Source: a virus
Strand: one strand, 5' to 3'
Virus genome (UHGV): UHGV-0185078
DNA: 59,749 bases
Made by a program: the position numbers and the translations under genes. Every line of letters begins with the position of its first letter. Positions within the stretch are counted from its first letter, which is position 1. Positions 535 through 10,092 of the stretch are shown in pieces. The notes under the pieces are model-generated. The model had not been told where the DNA came from and searched no databases. It saw only the letters and a list, made by a program, of their open reading frames with translations.

Positions 535-1458
535 ATGGCTACAGGTTCACGTTATTCGTGTTACTACGTCAAAGAAGATGTAAGCAACACTACGCCAGCG
601 AGCGCGAAGTTTACCCCGTTCCGTGTGACCAGTTCCGGTCTGGACATTAATATTGCAACGCTGGAATCTGAAGAACTGCGCGATGACGCTGAAACTGCGG
701 ACTTCCGCCTCGGCGCTCGCAGTGTTGAAGGTACAGTAACGGGCGAAATGTCCTTTGGCACCTTCGATGATCTTATTGCTGCTGCACTTCGTGGGGAGTG
801 GCAAGATAACGTCCTTAAAGGCGGTATCATCCGTCAGTCCTTCACTTTCGTAGACTATAACGCAGATCTACCTTCAGGTAAATATACAATTTATCGTGGT
901 TGCGAAGTTAATAGCATGACTTTCTCATTGTCTGCGGAAAACATGACCACAGTGGAATTCGGTATTGTTGGTCGCTCGATGGAGATTGCAGAATCTCTCC
1001 CATCTGGTGCAACTATCAAAGACCGTACAACTACTTCACCGATGGATGGTTTCTCCGGTCGCTTGCTGGAAAACGACGAAGAGATCAGCGTTATTACGGA
1101 AATCGGTCTTACCGTTGAAAACGATATTGCGCCGCGCTTTGTTGTTGGTTCTAAGTTCTCCATTGAACCGTCTGCTGGTCGTCGTGCTGTAACTGGTACA
1201 GCCAACGTGTACTTCCTGGACAACAAGCTTCGTACGAAGTATCTGGATGAAGTCGAAACGTCAATCAAGTTTGACCTGATCGACCCAAGCAATCCGGAAC
1301 AAAAATACACTGTGGAAATCCCTCGCGTGAAATTCACTGAAGCTCCGCGTCCTATTGACGGCGAAGGGGATATCATGCTTAATATGGGCTATCGCGGATT
1401 GCTGGACCCAACAACCGCAAGTTCCATCAAAATTACCCGCGTTCTAGCGGCAGCATAA
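535..1458 (+). CDS. major tail (tube) protein
   Basis: 307 aa; GAGAGGA RBS upstream of ATG; immediately precedes chaperone pair and tape measure gene, the canonical siphovirus order. Confidence 0.6.
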   Translation: MATGSRYSCYYVKEDVSNTTPASAKFTPFRVTSSGLDINIATLESEELRDDAETADFRLGARSVEGTVTGEMSFGTFDDLIAAALRGEWQDNVLKGGIIRQSFTFVDYNADLPSGKYTIYRGCEVNSMTFSLSAENMTTVEFGIVGRSMEIAESLPSGATIKDRTTTSPMDGFSGRLLENDEEISVITEIGLTVENDIAPRFVVGSKFSIEPSAGRRAVTGTANVYFLDNKLRTKYLDEVETSIKFDLIDPSNPEQKYTVEIPRVKFTEAPRPIDGEGDIMLNMGYRGLLDPTTASSIKITRVLAAA

Positions 1459-1467
1459 GGATAAGAA

Positions 1468-1875
1468 ATGACCGACACCAAAAAAGCCAAAGTTGCAGTA
1501 GCTAAAAGCTTTCGTGATTTTAAAACTGTGAGCCGGGCAAACGACCCGGCAAACACTAAGCCAATGAATGTGGTTATTCCTGGTGTAGGCGACACTGGCG
1601 AAAAACTCTACATTCGTAGCCGTTACTGCACAGAGTACCGTGATGCTGAACTGAAAGCACAGCGTCAACTGTTGGCGCTTATGCAGGGTAACGACGGTGA
1701 AGTAACGGATGCTATGAAGGAAGATATCCTTACCCGTTCACTGTGTAACCTTGTAGCAGGTTGGACTTTTGACGAGCCACCAACTGTTGACAACGTGTTT
1801 GAGTTCTTAACGGAGAACCCAACTGTTCGAGAAGATCTTAACGTATTTGCCGCCAAAGATAGTAATTTTTTCTAA
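1468..1875 (+). CDS. tail assembly chaperone (lambda G-like)
   Basis: 135 aa ORF between major tail and tape measure genes; ends ...AAT TTT TTC TAA with a T6C slippery run at 1866-1872. Confidence 0.55.
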   Translation: MTDTKKAKVAVAKSFRDFKTVSRANDPANTKPMNVVIPGVGDTGEKLYIRSRYCTEYRDAELKAQRQLLALMQGNDGEVTDAMKEDILTRSLCNLVAGWTFDEPPTVDNVFEFLTENPTVREDLNVFAAKDSNFF

Positions 1876-2273
1876 AAGCGCGCAGACAGTTAATTGATAA
1901 GAAGATCCTCCAATGGGAACTAAATAGCAAAGTCCCCGGCGGGGGATCTTCTTTATTATCGCAACTGCAAAAGGTTGAGGAACAGTCTGGTAAGACGCCA
2001 CCTAAGCTTAAAGAATATCGGGAAAAGGAAATACCGATTTGCTTTGAATACCTGTCTACTTTATTTGATGACATTTACACTGGAGGGGATTTTAGCTATA
2101 CAGAATTGCACAGCTATCAGGTAACAATGGGCTTACATCTTCAACCGTACGAATGCGAAATACTGCGACAGCTATGGCTTGAAAAGCGCGTGTCTGAAGC
2201 TGAACAAAATGCTAAACTCATGGAAAGTCAAATGCAAAATCAGAATAAAGGTAGAAGGAAAAGGAGAAGGTAA
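1866..2273 (+). CDS. -1 frameshift extension producing GT-like tail assembly chaperone fusion
   Basis: The -1 frame is open from the slippery T_TTT_TTC (1866-1872) to TAA 2271-2273 (about 134 codons, ...LWLEKRVSEAEQNAKLMESQMQNQNKGRRKRRR) with no in-frame ATG or RBS of its own until 2127; stop overlaps tape measure ATG. Confidence 0.45.
   Translation, partial: FFLKARRQLIDKKILQWELNSKVPGGGSSLLSQLQKVEEQSGKTPPKLKEYREKEIPICFEYLSTLFDDIYTGGDFSYTELHSYQVTMGLHLQPYECEILRQLWLEKRVSEAEQNAKLMESQMQNQNKGRRKRRR
1932..1957 (+). terminator. weak hairpin plus U-rich tract inside the GT extension
   Basis: tcccc-ggcg-gggga stem-loop followed by tcttctttatt; may attenuate transcription into the tape measure gene. 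Confidence 0.3.
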
Positions 2274-5200
2274 TGGCCGAAACTGCTTCGCTAGTAATCA
2301 GGGTTGACGCGAAAGGGATTAGCACAGCGGACTCCATGCTGCGTAACCTTGCGCGTACAGGTGACACAGCGGAGCGTTCCGCTCAACGTGTCACATCCAG
2401 CTATAAAACATTGTCTAACACATCTAACGAACTTGCAACTGTCACAAGTCGTTTAGATGCTGCAATTGTAGGAATGATCAGCGTTGACACCATTAACCGT
2501 GTTATTTCGCTATCGGACTCCTGGACTATCCTCACCAACAAACTTGAACTGGCTCGTACGGGTAATGAAACCGTTGCGGATGCACAGCAACGCGTGTTTG
2601 ATATTGCCCAGCGGTCACGTACAAGCTTGGAAGCAACTGCAACTCTATATTCCCGTCTCCAGCGTGCAATGAAGAATACTGGTATGACGGGTATGGAGCT
2701 TGGACGTATCACTGAAACAATCAACAAAGCGATGATTGTTTCCGGTGCAACATCACATGAAGCAAGCGCTGCCCTTATTCAGTTTTCGCAAGCAATGGCA
2801 TCCGGTGTTCTGCGAGGGGATGAATTCCGTTCTGTTGCAGAACAAGCCCCGCGCTTAACGCAAATTATGTCCGATGCGTTAGGTGTTACCATTGGACAAT
2901 TGCGTGAAATGGCCTACAGTGGCAAGTTAACCGCCGATGTGGTTATCAAATCGTTGTCTGGTGCTGCGGATACAATTGATAAAGAATTTAGCCGCACTAT
3001 GCCAACGTTCAACCAGCAATGGACGGTCGCAACAAATAACCTGACTAAGTTTATGGGCGAATCCCAAAAGACTCAGGGTGCGGTTGCTGCATTGGGACAG
3101 ACGTTTGTTGCATTATCCGGAAACTTAGGAACGGTTGTAACGGTTGGTTCAGCTTTAGCCACAGTAATTACCGCCCGTATCATCACCGCAATGCTTGCTA
3201 AGACTAAAGCGTCTATAGCTGCTGCAAAAGCATCTCAGATGGAAGCTGCACAGACTGCGGCAACTACTGCGGTAATGCAAAGCTCTATTGGCGTTACTGC
3301 ACAGAAAGCGGCTGCGGATCGTGCTGCTTCGCTTGCGGCGTTACAGGTTGCTCGCGGGTCATTAGCGGTTGCTAAAGGTACGGCAGCGGAAGCAGGTGCA
3401 CGTCTTGCGCTTATTAACGCTACTCGTGCGCATTCTGCGGCAATTATGGCGGACGTACAAGCGCGGCAAGCGCTCAATGCTGCTCTTAATGCAACTGTAC
3501 CAGCGGCAAGCCGAGCCGCTACAGCAATGAGCGTGCTGCGCGGTGCTATGGGGTTAATTGGCGGTCCTGTTGGTGTAGCAATGCTGGCAGCGGGTGCAAT
3601 TTACTCCTATAAAGCGTCGCTGGAAGCTGGTCGTGCGGAAAACAATCAGTTTGCGGATAGTGTTGATACTGTACGCGATAAACTGATGCAGATGACAGAA
3701 GCTCAGTTAGCTGCTAACGCAGTTAAAGCTCGCGCAATTCTCCCCGAACTTGAAGAGCAAATGAAGCGGGAGCAAACTGCTCTTAAATCTGCAACGGAAA
3801 CGCAGAAGTTCTATGAAGCGCAATTAAAACGTCGTGCTGCGTCCGGTCGTGATACAGCCAGTGCTGAAAAGAATTTACAAATTGCAACGGATAACGTCAA
3901 GCTTGCTGCTGAACGTGCTGAAGAAGCTCAACGTCGTTACAACAATGTCTTAGAAATGACAAGCCCTGCTATCGAGAAGATAATCCCGTTAGCTCGTCAG
4001 CTTGCAGCGGATATGAAAGCAGTGCTTAATATCAAATCCGGTCCGCTTATTGACGAGAAAGTGCTTGATCGTTTTAAAGGTCAGTTAGGTGACGTTAACC
4101 GTGAGATTGACGTCAACACGGTTAAAGGTGCTGGTAACGCTCGCCAGGCTGCAATCCTTAGTGGGCTGTATCAAACTCTGGGCAAAGATGCAGACACCTA
4201 CGGAAGTCTTATTCGCAAAGTAGCTATGGGTCAGGACGTTAGCTCAGAGGCAACAAGCGAATCTGCTAAAGAGCTTGTTAAATATGCTCAAGATTTAGCC
4301 CAAGCTCTTGGCAAAAACTACGATCTTGAAGAAGCAGAGAGAAACCGGACTAAAGCTACAAAAGACGCTATTAAGGCGCATCAACAAAACGCTAAGGTTA
4401 TTGACGATTTACGAAACAAGCTTAACGAAGTAACCACAGGGGTTAAGGAAAACGCCAAAGCGAAAGCGCAAGCGGTGGCACTTAATAAGCTCAATGCGTC
4501 TGCAACGGCTGCGGAAAAAGAGGAAGTTGTTAGACTTGCTGCTGCAATCTACGATGCAGAAGAAGCTCAAAAGAAACTGGACGAGCGTAAGAAGAACCGT
4601 AAGTTTGCTCAGGGTCTGTTAGATGAAGGTATGACAGACTATGAAAAAATCGCGTACGAGCAAAATACAAAGATTGCAGAGCTTAATGCAAAACAGCGAG
4701 CTGATGATTTAGCTTACTATCAGCTTTACGAAGATGCTAAAACCCAAGTCCTGAAGAAAGCAAGCATGGAAAGGGAAAATCTGGATAAAGTTCTTATGAA
4801 CCGAATGATATCCTTTTCTCAGGAATCCTTAGGCATTATAATGGATGGACTGTCACAGGCTGTAAGCCAGCAGAACTTCTTTTATAAAGCTATGTTTGCA
4901 GCACAGAAAGCAATGCAAATCCCGTCAATCCTTGCTAACACGGAAACGGCAGCATCCGCGGCGCTTGCATGGGGTACACAGCAAGGCGGTGCTACAATGG
5001 GCGCAACAATGGCAGCTATAGTGAAAACTATGGGCTATGCGTCAGCAGCTACTGTGGGTGGCTTAGCAATTGCTGGTATGGCTCACGACGGTATTGATAA
5101 CGTTCCGCGTGAAGGTACATGGTTGCTGGATAAGGGCGAACGTGTACTTAATGCTCCGTCTAATGACAAGTTAAATCGCTTCCTGGATAGCCAAGCTTCA

Positions 5201-5389
5201 CAACAAGGTGGCGTGAATATGTCCGGTGGTGTTAGCATTGTTCAGTATATCACGGTGCAAGGAAATGGCGATGCAGCACTCACACAAGCCATGCAAAAAG
5301 CAGCCCGTGATGGCGCTGAGCAGGGATATAATAAAGTTCTTAATGACTTTGCATCCCGAGGAACAATTCGTAGAACTGCAATGGGGTAA
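2273..5389 (+). CDS. tail tape measure protein
   Basis: 1038 aa, Ala/Gln/Lys-rich predicted coiled coil, hydrophobic Gly/Ala segment near C-terminus; follows chaperone pair. Confidence 0.85.
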   Translation: MAETASLVIRVDAKGISTADSMLRNLARTGDTAERSAQRVTSSYKTLSNTSNELATVTSRLDAAIVGMISVDTINRVISLSDSWTILTNKLELARTGNETVADAQQRVFDIAQRSRTSLEATATLYSRLQRAMKNTGMTGMELGRITETINKAMIVSGATSHEASAALIQFSQAMASGVLRGDEFRSVAEQAPRLTQIMSDALGVTIGQLREMAYSGKLTADVVIKSLSGAADTIDKEFSRTMPTFNQQWTVATNNLTKFMGESQKTQGAVAALGQTFVALSGNLGTVVTVGSALATVITARIITAMLAKTKASIAAAKASQMEAAQTAATTAVMQSSIGVTAQKAAADRAASLAALQVARGSLAVAKGTAAEAGARLALINATRAHSAAIMADVQARQALNAALNATVPAASRAATAMSVLRGAMGLIGGPVGVAMLAAGAIYSYKASLEAGRAENNQFADSVDTVRDKLMQMTEAQLAANAVKARAILPELEEQMKREQTALKSATETQKFYEAQLKRRAASGRDTASAEKNLQIATDNVKLAAERAEEAQRRYNNVLEMTSPAIEKIIPLARQLAADMKAVLNIKSGPLIDEKVLDRFKGQLGDVNREIDVNTVKGAGNARQAAILSGLYQTLGKDADTYGSLIRKVAMGQDVSSEATSESAKELVKYAQDLAQALGKNYDLEEAERNRTKATKDAIKAHQQNAKVIDDLRNKLNEVTTGVKENAKAKAQAVALNKLNASATAAEKEEVVRLAAAIYDAEEAQKKLDERKKNRKFAQGLLDEGMTDYEKIAYEQNTKIAELNAKQRADDLAYYQLYEDAKTQVLKKASMERENLDKVLMNRMISFSQESLGIIMDGLSQAVSQQNFFYKAMFAAQKAMQIPSILANTETAASAALAWGTQQGGATMGATMAAIVKTMGYASAATVGGLAIAGMAHDGIDNVPREGTWLLDKGERVLNAPSNDKLNRFLDSQASQQGGVNMSGGVSIVQYITVQGNGDAALTQAMQKAARDGAEQGYNKVLNDFASRGTIRRTAMG

Positions 5390-5392
5390 TAT

Positions 5393-5977
5393 ATGCTCAC
5401 TTGGCCCGAAGAAATTAGACCTTCCGAGATGGAATGGTATCTTGTTTCAAACTCTGTTGAATTTACAAGCCCCTTTAATGGGGCTTCACAAACTGTGTCC
5501 TATCCTGGGTCACGATGGGAAGCAACATTAACGTTCAGCAATTTAAATGACTGGCAATCCAGAAAGCTTGAATCAACGTTAGCTAAGCTTGACGGTAAAG
5601 CTGGTCGTATTATGCTTCAGGATTTTGGTCGCTGGGGTCGTGCACCGATTGGATCACCTGTGGTTAATGGCGCAAACAATACAGGGACAACTTTATCAAC
5701 CAAAGGTTGGACTCCTAACAGAAAGGTTCTATGGGAAGGGGATTACATCGCAGTAAATAATGAATTAAAATTAATAACCGAAGATGCTTGGAGCGATTCT
5801 TCTGGTAACGTGATTTTAAATATTGCCCCAATGCTGAGGACTATTCCACCAAATGGGGCTAAAATCGAAACTCAAAAACCACAAGGGGCTTTCCGTTTAG
5901 CAGAAAACACTAACGGGGTTAAGCGTCAACCAGCTTTTAATAATTCATTTACTTTAAAATTCTCGGAGGCGTTCTAA
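5393..5977 (+). CDS. minor tail protein (lambda M-like position)
   Basis: 194 aa ORF directly after tape measure; function from synteny only. Confidence 0.45.
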   Translation: MLTWPEEIRPSEMEWYLVSNSVEFTSPFNGASQTVSYPGSRWEATLTFSNLNDWQSRKLESTLAKLDGKAGRIMLQDFGRWGRAPIGSPVVNGANNTGTTLSTKGWTPNRKVLWEGDYIAVNNELKLITEDAWSDSSGNVILNIAPMLRTIPPNGAKIETQKPQGAFRLAENTNGVKRQPAFNNSFTLKFSEAF

Positions 5978-6561
5978 TGCTATTCAGCCCTTTCAGTGAT
6001 ACGCTTCTTAATGCAATGGAGCAGCCAAACGTTAGTTTGGTCCTTGCTGCGGAAATTGACTTTCCTTCTGGTGTAACGCGTGTACATACTGGGACAGGTG
6101 TTGTTGTTATTAACGGTCAAACGTTCCTGGGCGTTGGTACGCTTGGAGACGTAGGATCTGTAACAGAAGAAAACAGCACAAGCTCCAGCACAATGTCCAT
6201 GGCGCTAAGCGGTCTGGATATGAGTCTTGTTGGGGAGACGTTAAACGAAGAAGTTATCGGACGTAATGTTGTTTGCTATATTGCAGTGATGAACGATCAA
6301 GGTAACGTCATTGCTGCTAATATTTTGTTTGAAGGTTTCATTACAGACACCGCATTACAAGCAGGTCAACAGAATGCATTGAGTTATGTTATTTCCAACG
6401 TGTTTGAGCGTTGGTCACAAGGTTTACCAGATCGCTATACAGATGAAAGTCAACAGCGTTTATATCCGGGCGACCGTTTCTTTAGATATATTGCACAAAT
6501 GGCTGAACGTTCAATCTTTTGGGGGAGTAAAAAAGATGCGCCAGGGTTCTCCTATGAGTAA
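5977..6561 (+). CDS. minor tail protein (lambda L-like position)
   Basis: 194 aa ORF, ATG overlaps upstream stop; synteny only. Confidence 0.45.
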   Translation: MLFSPFSDTLLNAMEQPNVSLVLAAEIDFPSGVTRVHTGTGVVVINGQTFLGVGTLGDVGSVTEENSTSSSTMSMALSGLDMSLVGETLNEEVIGRNVVCYIAVMNDQGNVIAANILFEGFITDTALQAGQQNALSYVISNVFERWSQGLPDRYTDESQQRLYPGDRFFRYIAQMAERSIFWGSKKDAPGFSYE

Positions 6562-6970
6562 GTTGCCAGGCTGGCAGACACGTTTATTAACCACAGTAAA
6601 GGAGTTGTCATCGACTCCTTTTTCTTGGGGTGAAAATGATTGCTGCACCTTCGCGGCAAAATGTGTTGATGCGCAATACGGAACAAATATCTACGAACAA
6701 GTCGCTGGAAAATATAGTACAGAGCTTGGAAGTAAAAAGTTCACTATTGAAAGAGTTGGAACCGCTTACCTTCCATTGTTATTGGATACATATCTGAGCG
6801 AACGCGTTAACAAGAACTATGCGCAAAGAGGCGATGTGGTTACATTTGAGGGAGCATTGGGCTTAACTGCTGGCATATTATGGACTGGATATGTATGGGC
6901 TATGGGTCCGAACGGTGTGGAAACATTCCCGCTTAATAAGATCAAAATTACGGATATTTGGAGGGTCTAA
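6536..6970 (+). CDS. tail assembly protein (lambda K-like position), possible NlpC/P60-type Cys motif
   Basis: Start chosen at ATG 6536 preceded by GGGGGAG RBS (track ORF from 6386 would overlap upstream gene by 175 nt); contains ENDCCTF motif; stop overlaps next ATG (TAATG). Confidence 0.4.
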   Translation: MRQGSPMSKLPGWQTRLLTTVKELSSTPFSWGENDCCTFAAKCVDAQYGTNIYEQVAGKYSTELGSKKFTIERVGTAYLPLLLDTYLSERVNKNYAQRGDVVTFEGALGLTAGILWTGYVWAMGPNGVETFPLNKIKITDIWRV

Positions 6971-9900
6971 TGCCACCAGCAATAATTGGAGCAGCGATAG
7001 CTTTAGGTGCGTCGGCTGCTGCTGCGGCTAGTATTATTTCGGCTACTACCGCTCTCGTTATCGGTATTGCTGCAACTGCGGCAGGTGCTCTTTTAACTAA
7101 GACACCAAATATGAACTTTGATGCTTACAAGGGGCAGCAAGAGCGTAAACAGGTTCTGCGTGCGGCTACAGCGTCACGCTCTGTTGTATATGGCACGACC
7201 GTAGCGTCCGGACTATTAGCATTTGCGGAGGAAGAAGCTGGAGAACAAGATGAAGGTGAATGGATGCATCTTGTTGTTGTTCTTGCTAGTCATAAATTGG
7301 AAGGTATTGAAACAATTTGGTTGGGTGATGACGGAATTGATTGGTTTGGTGAAAACGCTACTTGGGAGTTTCATAACGACCGTCAGACTGTTGACCCATT
7401 CATGTTAAGACATTGTCCTTCCTGGAAGGAGGATATGATTGGCAAGGGTATTGCATGGCTACGTTTAAGCTTAAAGTTTGATGCTGAAAAATTCCCATCA
7501 GGTTTGCCAAACGTCAAGGTGTTGAAAAAGGGACGTAGAGTCTATGACCCACGTTCCGGTCAAACTGTCTTTAGCGATAATGCTGCTCTTGTTATTCTTG
7601 ATTATTTCCGCACGTATTTAAAGCGCAAGGACGAGAATATCAACTGGGACCAATTCAAGGAAGCTGCTAACATCTGCGATGAGTTTGTTACTAACGCAGA
7701 TAACACTACGGAAAGACGTTACCGCATTAACGGTGAGTTTGAAGTGGATGAAGCACCTGCCAAAATCCTTGATGCTATGCTTGAAGCTTGCGGCGGGGAG
7801 CTTACCTATATTGGTGGTAAACACGGTCTGTTAGTTGGTGCTTATTACGGTCCAGCTACCATGACTCTGGATGAAAGCTGCATTGCTGGGGACATTAAGA
7901 TTATCCCTGAGACATCTTATAAAGAACGCACCAATACCATTACAGGTACATTTGTTGACCCGAAGCAAACATACGCTGAAGCAGATTTTCCTCCAGTTGT
8001 GGTTAAGGAATGGGTGGAAAAAGATGGCGGCGAAATAACGCAAGACATGGATTTCCGCTTCGTTACAAGTGAATATCAAGCGCAACGGCTCGCTAATATT
8101 ATTTTACGTCGTAAGCGTGTTGGTCGAACAATTGAAGTGCCATGTAACATGAAGGGGTATAAATTCCGCCCGGGCATGTATGTTAACGTAACAATTTCAA
8201 ATATTGGAATGAAAAATGTTGAGATGCGCGTTACTAAATGGTCATTCGATCCTAAAGGTGGGATTAATCTTGTCCTTCGTCAAGACTTCCTGGAAATGTG
8301 GGACGACGCTATTGGTAAACCAATGGAGCGCCCGGATCTGGTAGACCTCCCGTCTGGTGCTATTGCTCAACCGCAAAACCTTCAGTATCAGGCATTGCAG
8401 ATTAGCGATGTTGTGCAGGGTGTTTTAACGTGGAGCAATATTGGACAGGTAGCGTATAACCGCGTAGCCGTGCGACAGGGAGGTACAACGGTTTGGACCG
8501 CACAAGTCCCTGGCCAAAACGTTCGCGTTACTGGGTTGCTGCGGGGCGCGTATACAGCACATGTTCAAGCGGTAGCCTATAGTGGGGCGGTATCACCGGA
8601 AGCGTATCTGGAATTTAATATTCAAGCTCCACCTCCTCCAACGTCTATTGAAGTGCAACAAGGTTACTTTGCAATAAGTCTAATCCCTAAATCCGCGGAT
8701 ATTGCAAACGTTAGCACGCAATATGATTTCTGGACGTCCGGTGAAACAAGATTGTCTTCCGTGTCTACAGATATTGTGGAACGCGAAGCGACTCGTAAAG
8801 GTATGGGTACAACATGGACTTCAGAAGGTTTGAAGAATGGCCACACTTACTACTGGTATGTTCGCACTATTAACGCTTTTGGATCGTCTGCATTTGTAGA
8901 GGTTGCTGCATTGTGTTTCACAACAGCTACAGACTTAATGCCACAGATTGATTCTGAGTTCAAGAAGACGGAGACTTATAAAGAGCTTACTGCTGAAATT
9001 ACAGGTGTTAAAGACGGTGTTACACAACTCAGTCAAACTGTAGTAGACACAGAAAAGCGTTTAAGTCAAAGTGTTAGCAACGTTCAGCAAAGCGTTATTA
9101 CTTTGGACGGCGTTGTTCAAGATCAGGGTGTTACCATCAACGAACAGGGGCAACTCATTGATGCACAGGGTCGATTAATTGATACGCAAGGTAAAACTAT
9201 TCAGCAAGTCAGCGCCACTGTACAGGAAACAAGTAAAGCAGTCGTAGATCTGGAAGGTAATGTTAACGCGCAATGGGGTGCTAAGGTACAGGTTGACAGT
9301 AAAGGGCAAAAATACGTTGCTGGTATCCAGTTGGGTATGGAAGGTTCAGGCGGTGCTGTACAATCTTACTTCATGGTGAGCGCTAACAACTTTGCTATCT
9401 ATAACCCGACAAACAGCGTAGCAGAATTGGCATTTGCTGTTAAGAACGGTCAAGTGTTCATGAAGGCTGCATTTATTGAAAATGGTACAATTGACAGCGC
9501 TAAAATTTCAAACCAGATTCAGTCAACAAACTACGCTAGCAATAGCGCGGGTTGGATGATCAACAAGAACGGTAGCGCTCAGTTTAACAACGTGACGGTA
9601 CGGGGTACGGTATACGCTAACAACGGATCTTTCACAGGAACAGTGAACGCAACAAGCGGTAAATTCAAGGGTACTGTGGAAGCTACCAGTTTTGTGGGTG
9701 ATGTCGCGAATATGTGTGTCATTGCTGAGTCTGCAATACCAAACACACAAACTACAAGTTCAAGAACCTGGACAAAAACTTTCAAAGACTCATCTGGTTC
9801 AACATTATCTAAAGACTTTGTGTTGTTATTAAGTTATAGTTTAACCGCATATACATCAAATCAGGCAAGTCGTATAATTGTGACTGCTAACATAGGTGGA

Positions 9901-10092
9901 ACATCAATAACAAGGAGGATTGAGCGAGCTGCCAATGGGCCTGCTATGGATGTAACCATACCTTTAGCAGTGAAAGGAAAGACAGCGTCGAGGGTAACAA
10001 TAAGCGTTAAGGAGGAATATACGAATGTCTATGGGAGTTACTTGCGTCCGTCTGTAATATTAATGACTCGCGGAACTGGTAGTTGGTCGTAA
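6970..10092 (+). CDS. tail tip / host specificity protein (lambda I+J-like)
   Basis: 1040 aa from ATG 6970 (GGAGGG RBS 4 nt upstream); hydrophobic Ala/Gly-rich N-terminus, large central body; position after M/L/K-like genes. Confidence 0.75.
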   Translation: MPPAIIGAAIALGASAAAAASIISATTALVIGIAATAAGALLTKTPNMNFDAYKGQQERKQVLRAATASRSVVYGTTVASGLLAFAEEEAGEQDEGEWMHLVVVLASHKLEGIETIWLGDDGIDWFGENATWEFHNDRQTVDPFMLRHCPSWKEDMIGKGIAWLRLSLKFDAEKFPSGLPNVKVLKKGRRVYDPRSGQTVFSDNAALVILDYFRTYLKRKDENINWDQFKEAANICDEFVTNADNTTERRYRINGEFEVDEAPAKILDAMLEACGGELTYIGGKHGLLVGAYYGPATMTLDESCIAGDIKIIPETSYKERTNTITGTFVDPKQTYAEADFPPVVVKEWVEKDGGEITQDMDFRFVTSEYQAQRLANIILRRKRVGRTIEVPCNMKGYKFRPGMYVNVTISNIGMKNVEMRVTKWSFDPKGGINLVLRQDFLEMWDDAIGKPMERPDLVDLPSGAIAQPQNLQYQALQISDVVQGVLTWSNIGQVAYNRVAVRQGGTTVWTAQVPGQNVRVTGLLRGAYTAHVQAVAYSGAVSPEAYLEFNIQAPPPPTSIEVQQGYFAISLIPKSADIANVSTQYDFWTSGETRLSSVSTDIVEREATRKGMGTTWTSEGLKNGHTYYWYVRTINAFGSSAFVEVAALCFTTATDLMPQIDSEFKKTETYKELTAEITGVKDGVTQLSQTVVDTEKRLSQSVSNVQQSVITLDGVVQDQGVTINEQGQLIDAQGRLIDTQGKTIQQVSATVQETSKAVVDLEGNVNAQWGAKVQVDSKGQKYVAGIQLGMEGSGGAVQSYFMVSANNFAIYNPTNSVAELAFAVKNGQVFMKAAFIENGTIDSAKISNQIQSTNYASNSAGWMINKNGSAQFNNVTVRGTVYANNGSFTGTVNATSGKFKGTVEATSFVGDVANMCVIAESAIPNTQTTSSRTWTKTFKDSSGSTLSKDFVLLLSYSLTAYTSNQASRIIVTANIGGTSITRRIERAANGPAMDVTIPLAVKGKTASRVTISVKEEYTNVYGSYLRPSVILMTRGTGSWS

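What the first reader, a model, noticed from the sequence alone, without database searches (positions are those of the whole stretch)
1866..2273. Programmed -1 ribosomal frameshift joining the tail assembly chaperone to a downstream extension (lambda G/GT-type)
The chaperone ORF ends AAT TTT TTC TAA; the T_TTT_TTC heptamer at 1866-1872 is a canonical slippery site. The -1 frame is open for about 134 further codons up to a stop overlapping the tape measure ATG, and lacks its own start codon and RBS for most of its length. G/GT frameshifting is conserved in long-tailed phages. A GC hairpin with U-tract at 1932-1957 lies about 60 nt downstream, too far to be a classical stimulatory pseudoknot, so it may be a partial terminator instead.
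Basis: partly seen in the sequence, partly recalled or inferred. Interest (0 to 1): 0.45.

Follow-up and report, generated by a model that had tools for sequence, protein, structure and literature searches.

The report
Phage tail chaperone G/GT frameshift site
This is the ordinary, already-annotated -1 ribosomal frameshift that lets a Seurat-like E. coli phage make a short and a long form of its tail assembly chaperone; the one less ordinary detail is an unusually well-conserved RNA stem-loop about 22 bases downstream.

Summary
ORF G (1468-1875, 135 aa) ends AAT TTT TTC TAA. The -1 frame is closed by TAG TAA at 1860-1865, then open from 1866 to a TAA (2271-2273) that overlaps the tape-measure ATG. 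The only G/T overlap is therefore the in-phase heptamer T_TTT_TTC (1866-1872).

The window is a Seuratvirus (Queuovirinae), 95-99% identical to phages slur01, CAjan and Seurat. The -1 extension is under purifying selection, including its first 80 codons, which contain no start codon (28 synonymous vs 7 non-synonymous changes). It carries Pfam Phage_TAC_18. G and T match one PHROG profile collinearly. Every one of the 44 related loci examined, down to about 25% protein identity, has T in the -1 frame with an in-phase T_TTT_TTC/A at the aligned Phe-Phe.

GenBank records for Seurat and SA80RD already annotate this join as ribosomal slippage within the same heptamer, so it is already known. It remains predicted, not demonstrated.

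It is positionally conserved in enteric relatives and sits in a zone of strongly suppressed synonymous variation. Its U-tract is not conserved, so a shared terminator role is unsupported. Its function is unresolved.

The parts
535..1458 (+). Tail tube (major tail) protein gene, 307 aa; upstream neighbour that defines the G/GT position
   Evidence: Pfam Phage_tube_2 E=6.7e-42; phrog_290
1468..1875 (+). G: tail assembly chaperone ORF in the 0 frame, 135 aa, 15.2 kDa, SD-like AAGGA at 1457-1461
   Evidence: ORF list. phrog_569 E=2.7e-26 and phrog_313 'Tail assembly chaperone' E=2.9e-11. Mass.
1860..1865 (+). Two -1-frame stop codons (TAG TAA) that close the -1 frame right up to the heptamer, so a productive shift can occur nowhere else
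   Evidence: Translation of the -1 frame; overlap = 7 nt
1866..1872 (+). Slippery heptamer T_TTT_TTC (P-site TTT 1867-1869, A-site TTC 1870-1872); the 0-frame stop TAA follows at 1873-1875
   Evidence: Conserved in phase in all related loci. Seurat's GenBank record places its ribosomal slippage at the equivalent of window position 1869. U_UU.U_UU.C is a frameshift-prone motif in E. coli (PMC4066793).
1872..2273 (+). T extension read in the -1 frame (133 codons plus TAA 2271-2273); no start codon before TTG 2106
   Evidence: Pfam PF23812 Phage_TAC_18, 37.7 bits against cutoff 27. phrog_569 positions 129-256. Synonymous 43 vs non-synonymous 14 in this frame, against 7 vs 49 in the other frames.
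1468..2273 (+). Predicted GT fusion product: codons 1468-1872 then 1872-2270, 268 aa, 30.9 kDa; junction ...AAK/DSNFFLK/AR
   Evidence: Same length as the joined CDS AIW03876.1 of phage Seurat.
1895..1958 (+). Extended RNA stem-loop: 17-bp stem with one bulge (1895-1911 pairing with 1941-1958) plus inner pairs, about -28 to -34 kcal/mol, starting 22 nt after the heptamer
   Evidence: Fold z=-4.0 against dinucleotide shuffles. z=-3.2 against synonymous recoding. Pair list. Positionally conserved in 8 enteric lineages.
1932..1957 (+).
   Evidence: Pattern scan: 6 terminator-like sites in 6 kb against 5.5 expected. The U-tract is absent in Nonagvirus, Kpn2-P2, K4PH164 and L033 relatives.
1855..1960 (+). 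Zone of suppressed synonymous variation covering the heptamer, the spacer and the stem-loop
   Evidence: 15 distinct Seuratvirus sequences show 3 variable columns against 21 expected. Third codon positions are variable at 2/35 inside versus 106/233 outside, Fisher p=1.6e-6.
2261..2275 (+). SD AAGGAG (2261-2266) and the TAATG overlap of the T stop with the tape-measure start
   Evidence: Sequence. The same stop/start overlap occurs in yong3, K4PH164, Vid5, JenK1 and PSTCR4.
2273..5389 (+). Tape measure protein gene, 1038 aa; downstream neighbour
   Evidence: Pfam TMP_3 E=3.3e-60; phrog_339 E=3.6e-181

Best explanation
Most ribosomes translating the tail assembly chaperone gene G (1468-1875) stop at TAA 1873 and release the 135-aa G protein. 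A minority slip back one base on U_UUU_UUC (1866-1872). The two tRNA-Phe re-pair from UUU-UUC to UUU-UUU, and reading continues at CUA 1872 in the -1 frame. This adds 133 residues and gives a 268-aa GT protein that ends at the tape-measure start.

By analogy with lambda gpG/gpGT, G and the G part of GT would coat the tape measure protein, and the T domain would recruit tail tube subunits. The fixed low slip rate would set the G:GT ratio.

Shown here: the geometry, coding selection in the -1 frame, the chaperone domain, and conservation of the heptamer. Inferred: that slippage is ribosomal, its efficiency, and the protein functions.

The adjacent UAA may add a second route to the same product: a peptidyl-tRNA-Phe slip from UUC to UUU while the stop codon waits in the A site.
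For: 1. The frames overlap only at the heptamer. The chance of an in-phase canonical heptamer there is about 0.004.
2. The start-less part 1872-2105 evolves as -1-frame coding sequence. 24 of 29 variable columns are third positions, with 28 synonymous vs 7 non-synonymous changes; the other two frames give 3-4 vs 31-32.
3. The T extension passes the Pfam Phage_TAC_18 gathering score over residues 37-106, which lie largely upstream of the first ATG. G and T hit positions 11-126 and 129-256 of the single profile phrog_569.
4. All 44 related loci have T in the -1 frame and an in-phase T_TTT_TTC (or T_TTT_TTA with T_TTA_AAG/C). They include Seurat-, Nonag-, Vidquinta-, Craquatro-, Amoy- and Abidjanvirus and metagenomic contigs. 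Protein alignments of T start at the Phe-Phe without gaps. G proteins end their conserved part at that Phe-Phe.
5. The Seurat and SA80RD GenBank records carry the joined CDS with 'ribosomal slippage' inside the same heptamer.
6. U_UU.U_UU.C is frameshift-prone and under-represented in E. coli genes, and is used by IS elements (PMC4066793).
7. The G-T frameshift is widely conserved in long-tailed phages (PMC5009743).
Against: - I found no protein or reporter data for any Seuratvirus or Nonagvirus.
- There is no SD-like stimulator upstream and no structure at the canonical 5-9 nt spacing, so the efficiency may be low.
- G and T show no detectable sequence similarity to lambda G or T, so the functional analogy rests on gene position and the chaperone family hits.
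- Most GenBank relatives do not annotate the join.
Confidence: 0.9

Rival explanations
1. Transcriptional slippage. RNA polymerase inserts one extra U in the T run (1866-1871). A subset of mRNAs then encodes the same GT fusion by standard translation.
For: The site is a homopolymeric T run: 6 T here and 7 T in most distant relatives. One inserted U would give an identical protein, so sequence and protein data alone cannot separate the two mechanisms.
Against: Efficient slippage by bacterial RNA polymerase is described for runs of about 9 A or T, and is not detectable on shorter mixed runs without context features (PMC5009743). Here the run is 6. The motif is kept in the X_XXY_YYZ phase in every locus. 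In the K4PH164 group it is accompanied by a second in-phase heptamer, T_TTA_AAG, which matters only for tRNA re-pairing.
Confidence: 0.05
2. No recoding. The downstream region encodes a separate small protein started internally (TTG 2106 or ATG 2127, 48-55 aa), as annotated in the BASEL phages, and 1876-2105 is non-coding spacer.
For: KurtStettler, WildeMaa, SD04 and others annotate a 48-aa ORF equivalent to 2127-2273. Skure annotates a TTG-started ORF.
Against: The supposedly non-coding 1872-2105 shows 24 of 29 substitutions at -1-frame third positions and 28 synonymous vs 7 non-synonymous changes. tblastn and protein alignments with 25-55% identical relatives begin at residues 1-3 of the extension. 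The Phage_TAC_18 domain spans extension residues 37-106 and would be cut at residue 88 by an ATG 2127 start. The positions of the first start-like codons differ between lineages.
Confidence: 0.03
3. Same fusion product, but the main pathway is a single-tRNA 'shifty stop' slip. With UUC (1870-1872) in the P site and UAA in the A site, peptidyl-tRNA-Phe slips to UUU (1869-1871) during slow termination. This would replace tandem slippage of two tRNAs.
For: The 0-frame stop follows the heptamer directly in Seuratvirus, yong3, Nonagvirus and the Kpn2-P2 group. U_UU.Y tetramers are among the most shift-prone tetramers in E. coli (PMC4066793).
Against: In Vid5, K4PH164, L033, PSTCR4 and all Pseudomonas/Alteromonas relatives the stop lies 3-93 nt further on, yet the full heptamer is conserved. 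The full heptamer, not the stop, is therefore the conserved signal.
Confidence: 0.2
4. The hairpin at 1932-1957 is a partial intrinsic terminator that lowers transcription of T and the tape measure gene relative to the tube gene and G.
For: A 5-6 bp GC stem is followed by CTTCTTTATT. It lies just past the G stop, where few ribosomes travel. The region is under strong synonymous constraint in Seuratvirus.
Against: The count of terminator-like sites in the region equals the shuffle expectation (6 vs 5.5). The thermodynamically favoured fold uses the T-rich tail as the 3' arm of a 17-bp stem. Relatives keep a stem-loop at this position but have no U-tract: JenK1, Kpn2-P2, K4PH164 and L033.
Confidence: 0.15

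Closest known systems
Phage lambda gpG/gpGT programmed -1 frameshift (Levin, Hendrix & Casjens 1993; Xu, Hendrix & Duda 2004, 2013, 2014, as reviewed in PMC5009743)
   Same: Two ORFs lie between the major tail gene and the tape measure gene. The second is in the -1 frame with no start of its own. An in-phase X_XXY_YYZ heptamer sits near the end of G. The T stop overlaps the tape-measure start. Sizes are similar: G about 135-140 aa, with about 130 aa added.
   Different: The heptamer is U_UUU_UUC, not G_GGA_AAG. The frame overlap is only 7 nt, and the stop follows the heptamer directly (in lambda the stop begins 15 nt after the heptamer). There is no detectable sequence similarity to lambda G or T (hhalign probability <1%). 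The stable downstream fold starts 22 nt after the heptamer rather than 7 nt.
Escherichia phage Seurat CPT_Seurat13/14 'tape measure chaperone' (KM236243.1; joined CDS AIW03876.1, note 'ribosomal slippage (10236)'), and SA80RD_14/15 (OL960575.1)
   Same: Same genus and same locus. About 95% nucleotide identity and 99% identity in the T extension. The heptamer and flanks are identical, and so is the 268-aa fusion length.
   Different: Nothing substantive. That annotation is also a prediction: the genome announcement only lists a tape measure chaperone (PMC4342423).
IS-element and E. coli -1 frameshift sites using U_UUU_UUC or A_AAA_AAG (IS3/IS911 families, dnaX; PMC4066793)
   Same: The same class of tandem-slippage heptamer, decoded by E. 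coli ribosomes.
   Different: Those sites typically have an upstream SD-like element and/or a hairpin or pseudoknot 5-9 nt downstream. Neither is present here at canonical spacing.

Membership tests
Lambda-type G/GT tail assembly chaperone frameshift module (criteria of Xu, Hendrix & Duda 2004) | Two ORFs located between the major tail (tube) gene and the tape measure gene | tested here: met
   Tube gene 535-1458, G 1468-1875, T to 2273, tape measure gene 2273-5389
Lambda-type G/GT tail assembly chaperone frameshift module (criteria of Xu, Hendrix & Duda 2004) | Second ORF in the -1 frame relative to the first, overlapping it, without its own start codon or RBS | tested here: met
   The -1 frame is open 1866-2273. 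The first start-like codon is TTG 2106, with no SD.
Lambda-type G/GT tail assembly chaperone frameshift module (criteria of Xu, Hendrix & Duda 2004) | Canonical slippery heptamer X_XXY_YYZ in phase within the overlap | tested here: met
   T_TTT_TTC at 1866-1872 fills the whole 7-nt overlap. The background rate is 0.0038 per codon.
Lambda-type G/GT tail assembly chaperone frameshift module (criteria of Xu, Hendrix & Duda 2004) | The arrangement and slip site are conserved in relatives whose proteins have diverged | tested here: met
   All 44 related loci, down to 22-28% T identity, keep the -1 relation and an in-phase T_TTT_TTC/A
Lambda-type G/GT tail assembly chaperone frameshift module (criteria of Xu, Hendrix & Duda 2004) | The extension is a real coding sequence (purifying selection in the -1 frame) | tested here: met
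   43 synonymous vs 14 non-synonymous changes in the -1 frame, against 7 vs 49 in the other frames. The start-less part gives 28 vs 7.
Lambda-type G/GT tail assembly chaperone frameshift module (criteria of Xu, Hendrix & Duda 2004) | Both G and GT proteins are made at a fixed ratio and both are needed for tail assembly | not testable with these tools
   No proteomic or reporter data were found for this phage group
Lambda gpG / gpT protein families (sequence homology) | Detectable sequence similarity to lambda G and T | tested here: not met
   hhalign of the G and T family alignments against lambda G and T gave probabilities of 0.1% and 0.3%. The locus is an analogue by position and architecture only.
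Pfam PF23812 Phage_TAC_18 (phage tail assembly chaperone) | Score above the curated gathering threshold | tested here: met
   T extension residues 37-106 score 37.7 bits against cutoff 27, E=2.3e-9
PHROG 569 (profile of fused G+T proteins; labelled 'tail length tape measure protein') | G and T match consecutive halves of one profile | tested here: met
   G matches positions 11-126 (E=2.7e-26) and T matches positions 129-256 (E=6.7e-47) of 256
Pfam PF08748 Phage_TAC_4 | Score above the gathering threshold for G | tested here: not met
   14.1 bits against cutoff 21.1
Tail assembly chaperone fold | Structural similarity of G to solved chaperone structures | tested here: inconclusive
   The single-sequence AlphaFold model of G has pLDDT 44 and is unusable. 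There are no PDB sequence matches.
Canonical -1 PRF 3' stimulator (hairpin or pseudoknot) | Stable structure beginning 5-9 nt after the heptamer | tested here: not met
   The stable stem starts at 1895, a 22-nt spacer. The spacer is 18-32 nt in the eight enteric lineages.
Canonical -1 PRF 5' stimulator (dnaX / IS911 type) | SD-like sequence about 10-14 nt upstream of the heptamer | tested here: not met
   The upstream sequence GCCGCCAAAGATAGTAA has no GGAGG or AGGA-type element, and neither do the relatives
Rho-independent terminator | GC-rich stem-loop immediately followed by a U-tract, conserved in relatives | tested here: inconclusive
   The pattern is present in the window but at a frequency no higher than in shuffles. 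The U-tract is absent in Nonagvirus, Kpn2-P2, K4PH164 and L033 relatives that keep the stem-loop.
Transcriptional slippage site | Homopolymeric A or T run of about 9 or more | tested here: not met
   The run is 6 T here (1866-1871) and 7 T in distant relatives. The length requirement comes from PMC5009743.

The most novel reading that the evidence does not exclude
The stem-loop at 1895-1958 may be a functional cis-element of the G/GT module that acts at a non-canonical distance. It sits 18-32 nt after the slip site and always 9-26 nt past the G stop in eight enteric phage lineages. It is more stable than synonymous recodings, and in Seuratvirus it lies in a 106-nt zone almost free of synonymous change. 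Two readings remain open. It could tune frameshifting indirectly, for example by stalling an already-shifted leading ribosome so that the next ribosome queues on the heptamer. Alternatively it could mark a processing, stability or attenuation point that steps expression down between tube+G and T+tape measure.
Probability: 0.3. Interest if true: 0.45.

Novelty: already known. Interest (0 to 1): 0.17.

Why it matters
Practically, it shows how this locus should be annotated. The correct product is one joined 268-aa GT chaperone, not the stray 48-55-aa ORFs or the empty gap seen in many related GenBank records. It also extends the same call to Nonagvirus, Vidquintavirus, Craquatrovirus and related phages, where the join is mostly unannotated. 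Scientifically, the frameshift adds nothing new to a textbook mechanism. The conserved long-spacer stem-loop and its synonymous-site constraint are a modest lead on how G/GT or tail-gene stoichiometry is tuned when the stop codon abuts the slip site.

Tried and rejected
The single-sequence model of G had pLDDT 44 and was not used, so no fold search was run.
- PDB sequence searches with G and with the T-family profile gave only chance-level hits.
- hhalign against lambda G and T found no similarity.
- Rfam returned only sub-threshold minus-strand hits, which merely reflect a hairpin.
- The hairpin core is not a repeated element in the window.
- The search for related loci with the 14-sequence T alignment failed because no stretch was conserved enough. 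A 6-sequence alignment worked.
- A single column-wise consensus structure across all enteric lineages does not exist. RNAalifold gives none, because the pairing registers differ by 1-5 nt between lineages. Covariation could only be counted within Nonagvirus plus Kpn2-P2, where 2 pairs show compensatory changes.
- For the Pseudomonas/Alteromonas relatives I first read small hairpins 5-7 nt after the heptamer as canonical stimulators. These are not significant against synonymous recoding, and the best local hairpins are inconsistently placed, so I make no claim there.
- Literature searches found no experimental work on this frameshift in Queuovirinae.
- I did not run the large protein-database searches, because the outcome would not change the verdict.

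Full report
**Observation.** ORF G runs from ATG 1468 to TAA 1873-1875 (135 aa) and ends AGT AAT TTT TTC TAA. Read one base back, the frame shows TAG (1860-1862) and TAA (1863-1865). It then stays open from 1866 for 135 codons to TAA 2271-2273, whose last A is the first base of the tape-measure ATG at 2273. The two frames therefore overlap only at 1866-1872, and those seven bases are T_TTT_TTC with TTT and TTC as 0-frame codons. The first start-like codon in the -1 frame is TTG 2106, 80 codons in, and the first ATG is 2127. In this window's own ORFs, in-phase X_XXY_YYZ heptamers occur at 78 of 20,723 codon positions, or 0.0038. The string TTTTTTC is found 12 times against 21.5 expected. A canonical heptamer at the only usable position is therefore not a chance expectation.

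**Context.** The window is a Seuratvirus (Queuovirinae), 95-99% identical over 1400-2400 to Escherichia phages slur01, KurtStettler, CAjan, Seurat and about 30 others. The gene order is tail tube protein (535-1458, Pfam Phage_tube_2, E=7e-42), G, the extension, then the tape measure protein (2273-5389, Pfam TMP_3, E=3e-60). This is the position where long-tailed phages encode the G/GT tail assembly chaperones (PMC5009743).

**The -1 frame is translated from the slip site onward.**
- Among nine Seuratvirus sequences, the extension has 51 variable columns, 38 of them at -1-frame third positions. That gives 43 synonymous vs 14 non-synonymous changes, against 7 vs 49 in either other frame.
- In the part that precedes any start codon (1872-2105), the figures are 24 of 29 third positions and 28 vs 7.
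- The extension passes the gathering score of Pfam PF23812 (Phage_TAC_18) over its residues 37-106. That domain would be truncated by an ATG 2127 start.
- G and the extension hit positions 11-126 and 129-256 of one PHROG profile, phrog_569. I infer that this profile was built from fused proteins.
- tblastn with the extension finds 86 phage records. In relatives with only 33-56% identity the match still begins at residues 1-3. A 14-lineage protein alignment starts, without gaps, at the Phe-Phe encoded by the heptamer.
- The G proteins end their conserved part at the same Phe-Phe. After it, their 0-frame tails are 0-31 unconserved residues.

**The slip site is conserved.** I examined 14 further GenBank loci, 22 IMG/VR loci and 8 more Seuratvirus records; some phages appear in two collections. 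They cover Seuratvirus (including the divergent Skure and Hafnia phage yong3), Nonagvirus, Vidquintavirus, Craquatrovirus, Amoyvirus, Abidjanvirus and unclassified Klebsiella, Enterobacter, Pseudomonas and Stenotrophomonas phages. In every one, T is in the -1 frame relative to G. An in-phase T_TTT_TTC lies at the aligned position, or T_TTT_TTA together with T_TTA_AAG/C in the K4PH164/EC151 group. Nucleotide identity of the flanking 127 nt falls to 31-57% between lineages, so this seven-base identity reflects selection. The distance from the heptamer to the G stop varies from 0 to 93 nt. The heptamer, not the adjacent stop, is therefore the conserved signal.

**It is already annotated.** That position maps to window position 1869, inside the heptamer. 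OL960575.1 (SA80RD) does the same. Other relatives annotate a separate 48-aa ORF equivalent to 2127-2273, a TTG-started ORF, or nothing. The Seurat genome announcement only lists a tape measure chaperone (PMC4342423). I found no experimental test in this phage group.

**Mechanism.** The best-supported reading is tandem -1 slippage of two tRNA-Phe on U_UUU_UUC, giving G (15.2 kDa) and GT (30.9 kDa, junction peptide DSNFFLK).
- Sharma et al. measured all 64 heptamers in E. coli. They list U_UU.U_UU.C among the motifs that shift at more than 0.1% without any stimulator. It is under-represented in genes, is among the more efficient motifs used by IS elements, and U_UU.Y ranks second among tetramers (PMC4066793).
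- There is no SD-like element upstream and no structure at 5-9 nt downstream. A low, lambda-like efficiency is therefore the sensible expectation; this is an inference.
- Because UAA follows directly, a P-site slip of peptidyl-tRNA-Phe from UUC to UUU during termination would yield the same protein and may contribute. It cannot be the conserved mechanism, because many relatives lack the adjacent stop.
- Transcriptional slippage would also give the same protein. However, the run is only 6 T, against about 9 needed for efficient slippage by bacterial polymerase (PMC5009743). Strict phase conservation also fits tRNA re-pairing better.

**The hairpin.**
- Folding 1873-1975 gives a larger stem-loop: 1895-1911 pairs with 1941-1958 (17 bp, one bulge), plus inner pairs. 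The energy is -33.7 kcal/mol, with z=-4.0 against dinucleotide shuffles. The T-rich 'tail' is the 3' arm of this stem.
- In a sliding 70-nt scan of 14 lineages from -390 to +330 around the heptamer, the mean z-score has one clear minimum, for windows starting at +15 and +30 (-2.2 and -2.9, against about -0.2 elsewhere).
- Against synonymous recodings that keep the protein, the native sequence is more stable in 13 of 14 lineages. Examples: window z=-3.2, Vid5 -3.7, JenK1 -3.0, L034 -2.5, PSTCR4 -2.4, Kpn2-P2 -2.1.
- The stems are built from different sequences, and their pairing registers differ by a few bases, so there is no single column-wise consensus. Between Nonagvirus and the Kpn2-P2 group, which share a register, two pairs show compensatory double changes, both through synonymous codon changes.
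- In the eight enteric lineages the best local hairpin starts 18-32 nt after the heptamer and 9-26 nt after the G stop.
- Only Seuratvirus has the U-rich 3' side, so intrinsic termination is not the shared function.
- In 15 distinct Seuratvirus sequences, the stretch 1855-1960 (heptamer, spacer and stem-loop) has 3 variable columns against 21 expected. Third codon positions vary at 2/35 inside versus 106/233 outside (Fisher p=1.6e-6). The three variants lie in a loop or are absorbed by a bulge shift.

I conclude that an RNA-level (or DNA-level) constraint is real here. Its role is unresolved. At 22 nt it is too far for a classical stimulator. Lying in the stretch that most ribosomes never enter fits a stability, processing or attenuation element, or an indirect effect on ribosome traffic. 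Lambda's own G-T site has a stable fold starting 7 nt after its heptamer. For the Pseudomonas/Alteromonas relatives the picture is inconsistent.

**Comparison and membership.** Functionally and architecturally this is a lambda-type G/GT module, and all sequence-testable criteria are met. It is not a detectable sequence homologue of lambda G or T (hhalign probability <1%). G falls below the Phage_TAC_4 threshold. By family, it belongs to phrog_569 and phrog_313, and its T part to Pfam Phage_TAC_18. A fold-level test failed for lack of a usable model. PDB sequence searches and Rfam gave nothing.

**Verdict.** It is a textbook mechanism already annotated at this exact site in a 95%-identical phage, so novelty is 'already known' and interest is low. 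The main residual value is correcting the inconsistent annotation of relatives. The secondary lead is the conserved long-spacer stem-loop and its synonymous-site constraint.

Noticed in passing
window 1855-1960: In 15 distinct Seuratvirus sequences, this 106-nt stretch around the heptamer and stem-loop has only 3 variable columns against 21 expected. Third codon positions vary at 2/35 inside versus 106/233 outside, p=1.6e-6.
   Followed up: yes
window 2158-2277: A second zone of low variability among Seuratvirus sequences lies at the end of the T extension: 1-3 variable columns per 30 nt against 7-10 just upstream. It covers the basic tail KGRRKRRR, the SD AAGGAG (2261-2266) and the TAATG stop/start overlap with the tape measure gene. 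This may reflect translational coupling or another RNA element.
   Followed up: no
L040 (phage lambda NC_001416) locus 1210-1300: Lambda's own G-T slip site (GGGAAAG) is followed, after a 7-nt spacer, by a stable multi-branch fold. The 70-nt window at +15 gives -34.1 kcal/mol and z=-4.3; the best local hairpin is -34.8 kcal/mol.
   Followed up: partly
L011 (Aeromonas phage AP1, MT713136.1) about 1219-1470, + strand: A 254-kb Straboviridae record carries a stand-alone homologue of the T domain (34.6% identity, E=1e-11). It has no G ORF or T-run upstream and lies opposite an annotated minus-strand hypothetical CDS. Possible causes are a strand mis-call, a captured domain or an assembly chimera.
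   Followed up: partly
L002, L017, L041-L046 (GenBank Seuratvirus records) and L004-L016: Annotation of this locus is inconsistent across relatives: a joined CDS in Seurat and SA80RD, separate 48-70-aa ORFs or nothing elsewhere, and the product name 'tail length tape measure protein' transferred to G and T in RefSeq/PHROG-based records. None of the fetched records outside Seuratvirus (Nonagvirus JenK1, Vid5, PSTCR4, R7M, Ab18 and others) annotates the join, although the signal is present.
   Followed up: partly
window 1830-1837 and 1945-1952: AGAAGATC inside G, 29 nt upstream of the heptamer, is perfectly complementary to part of the 3' arm of the stem-loop. It is therefore a possible alternative pairing partner to 1899-1909. 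This is probably chance (8 bp).
   Followed up: no
window 5393-10092: Downstream of the tape measure gene lie three 194-aa ORFs (5393-5977, 5977-6561, 6386-6970) and a 1044-aa ORF (6958-10092). The layout resembles lambda's M/L/K/J tail-tip genes. The in-phase TTTAAAA at 5953 merely precedes an ordinary overlapping gene start.
   Followed up: no
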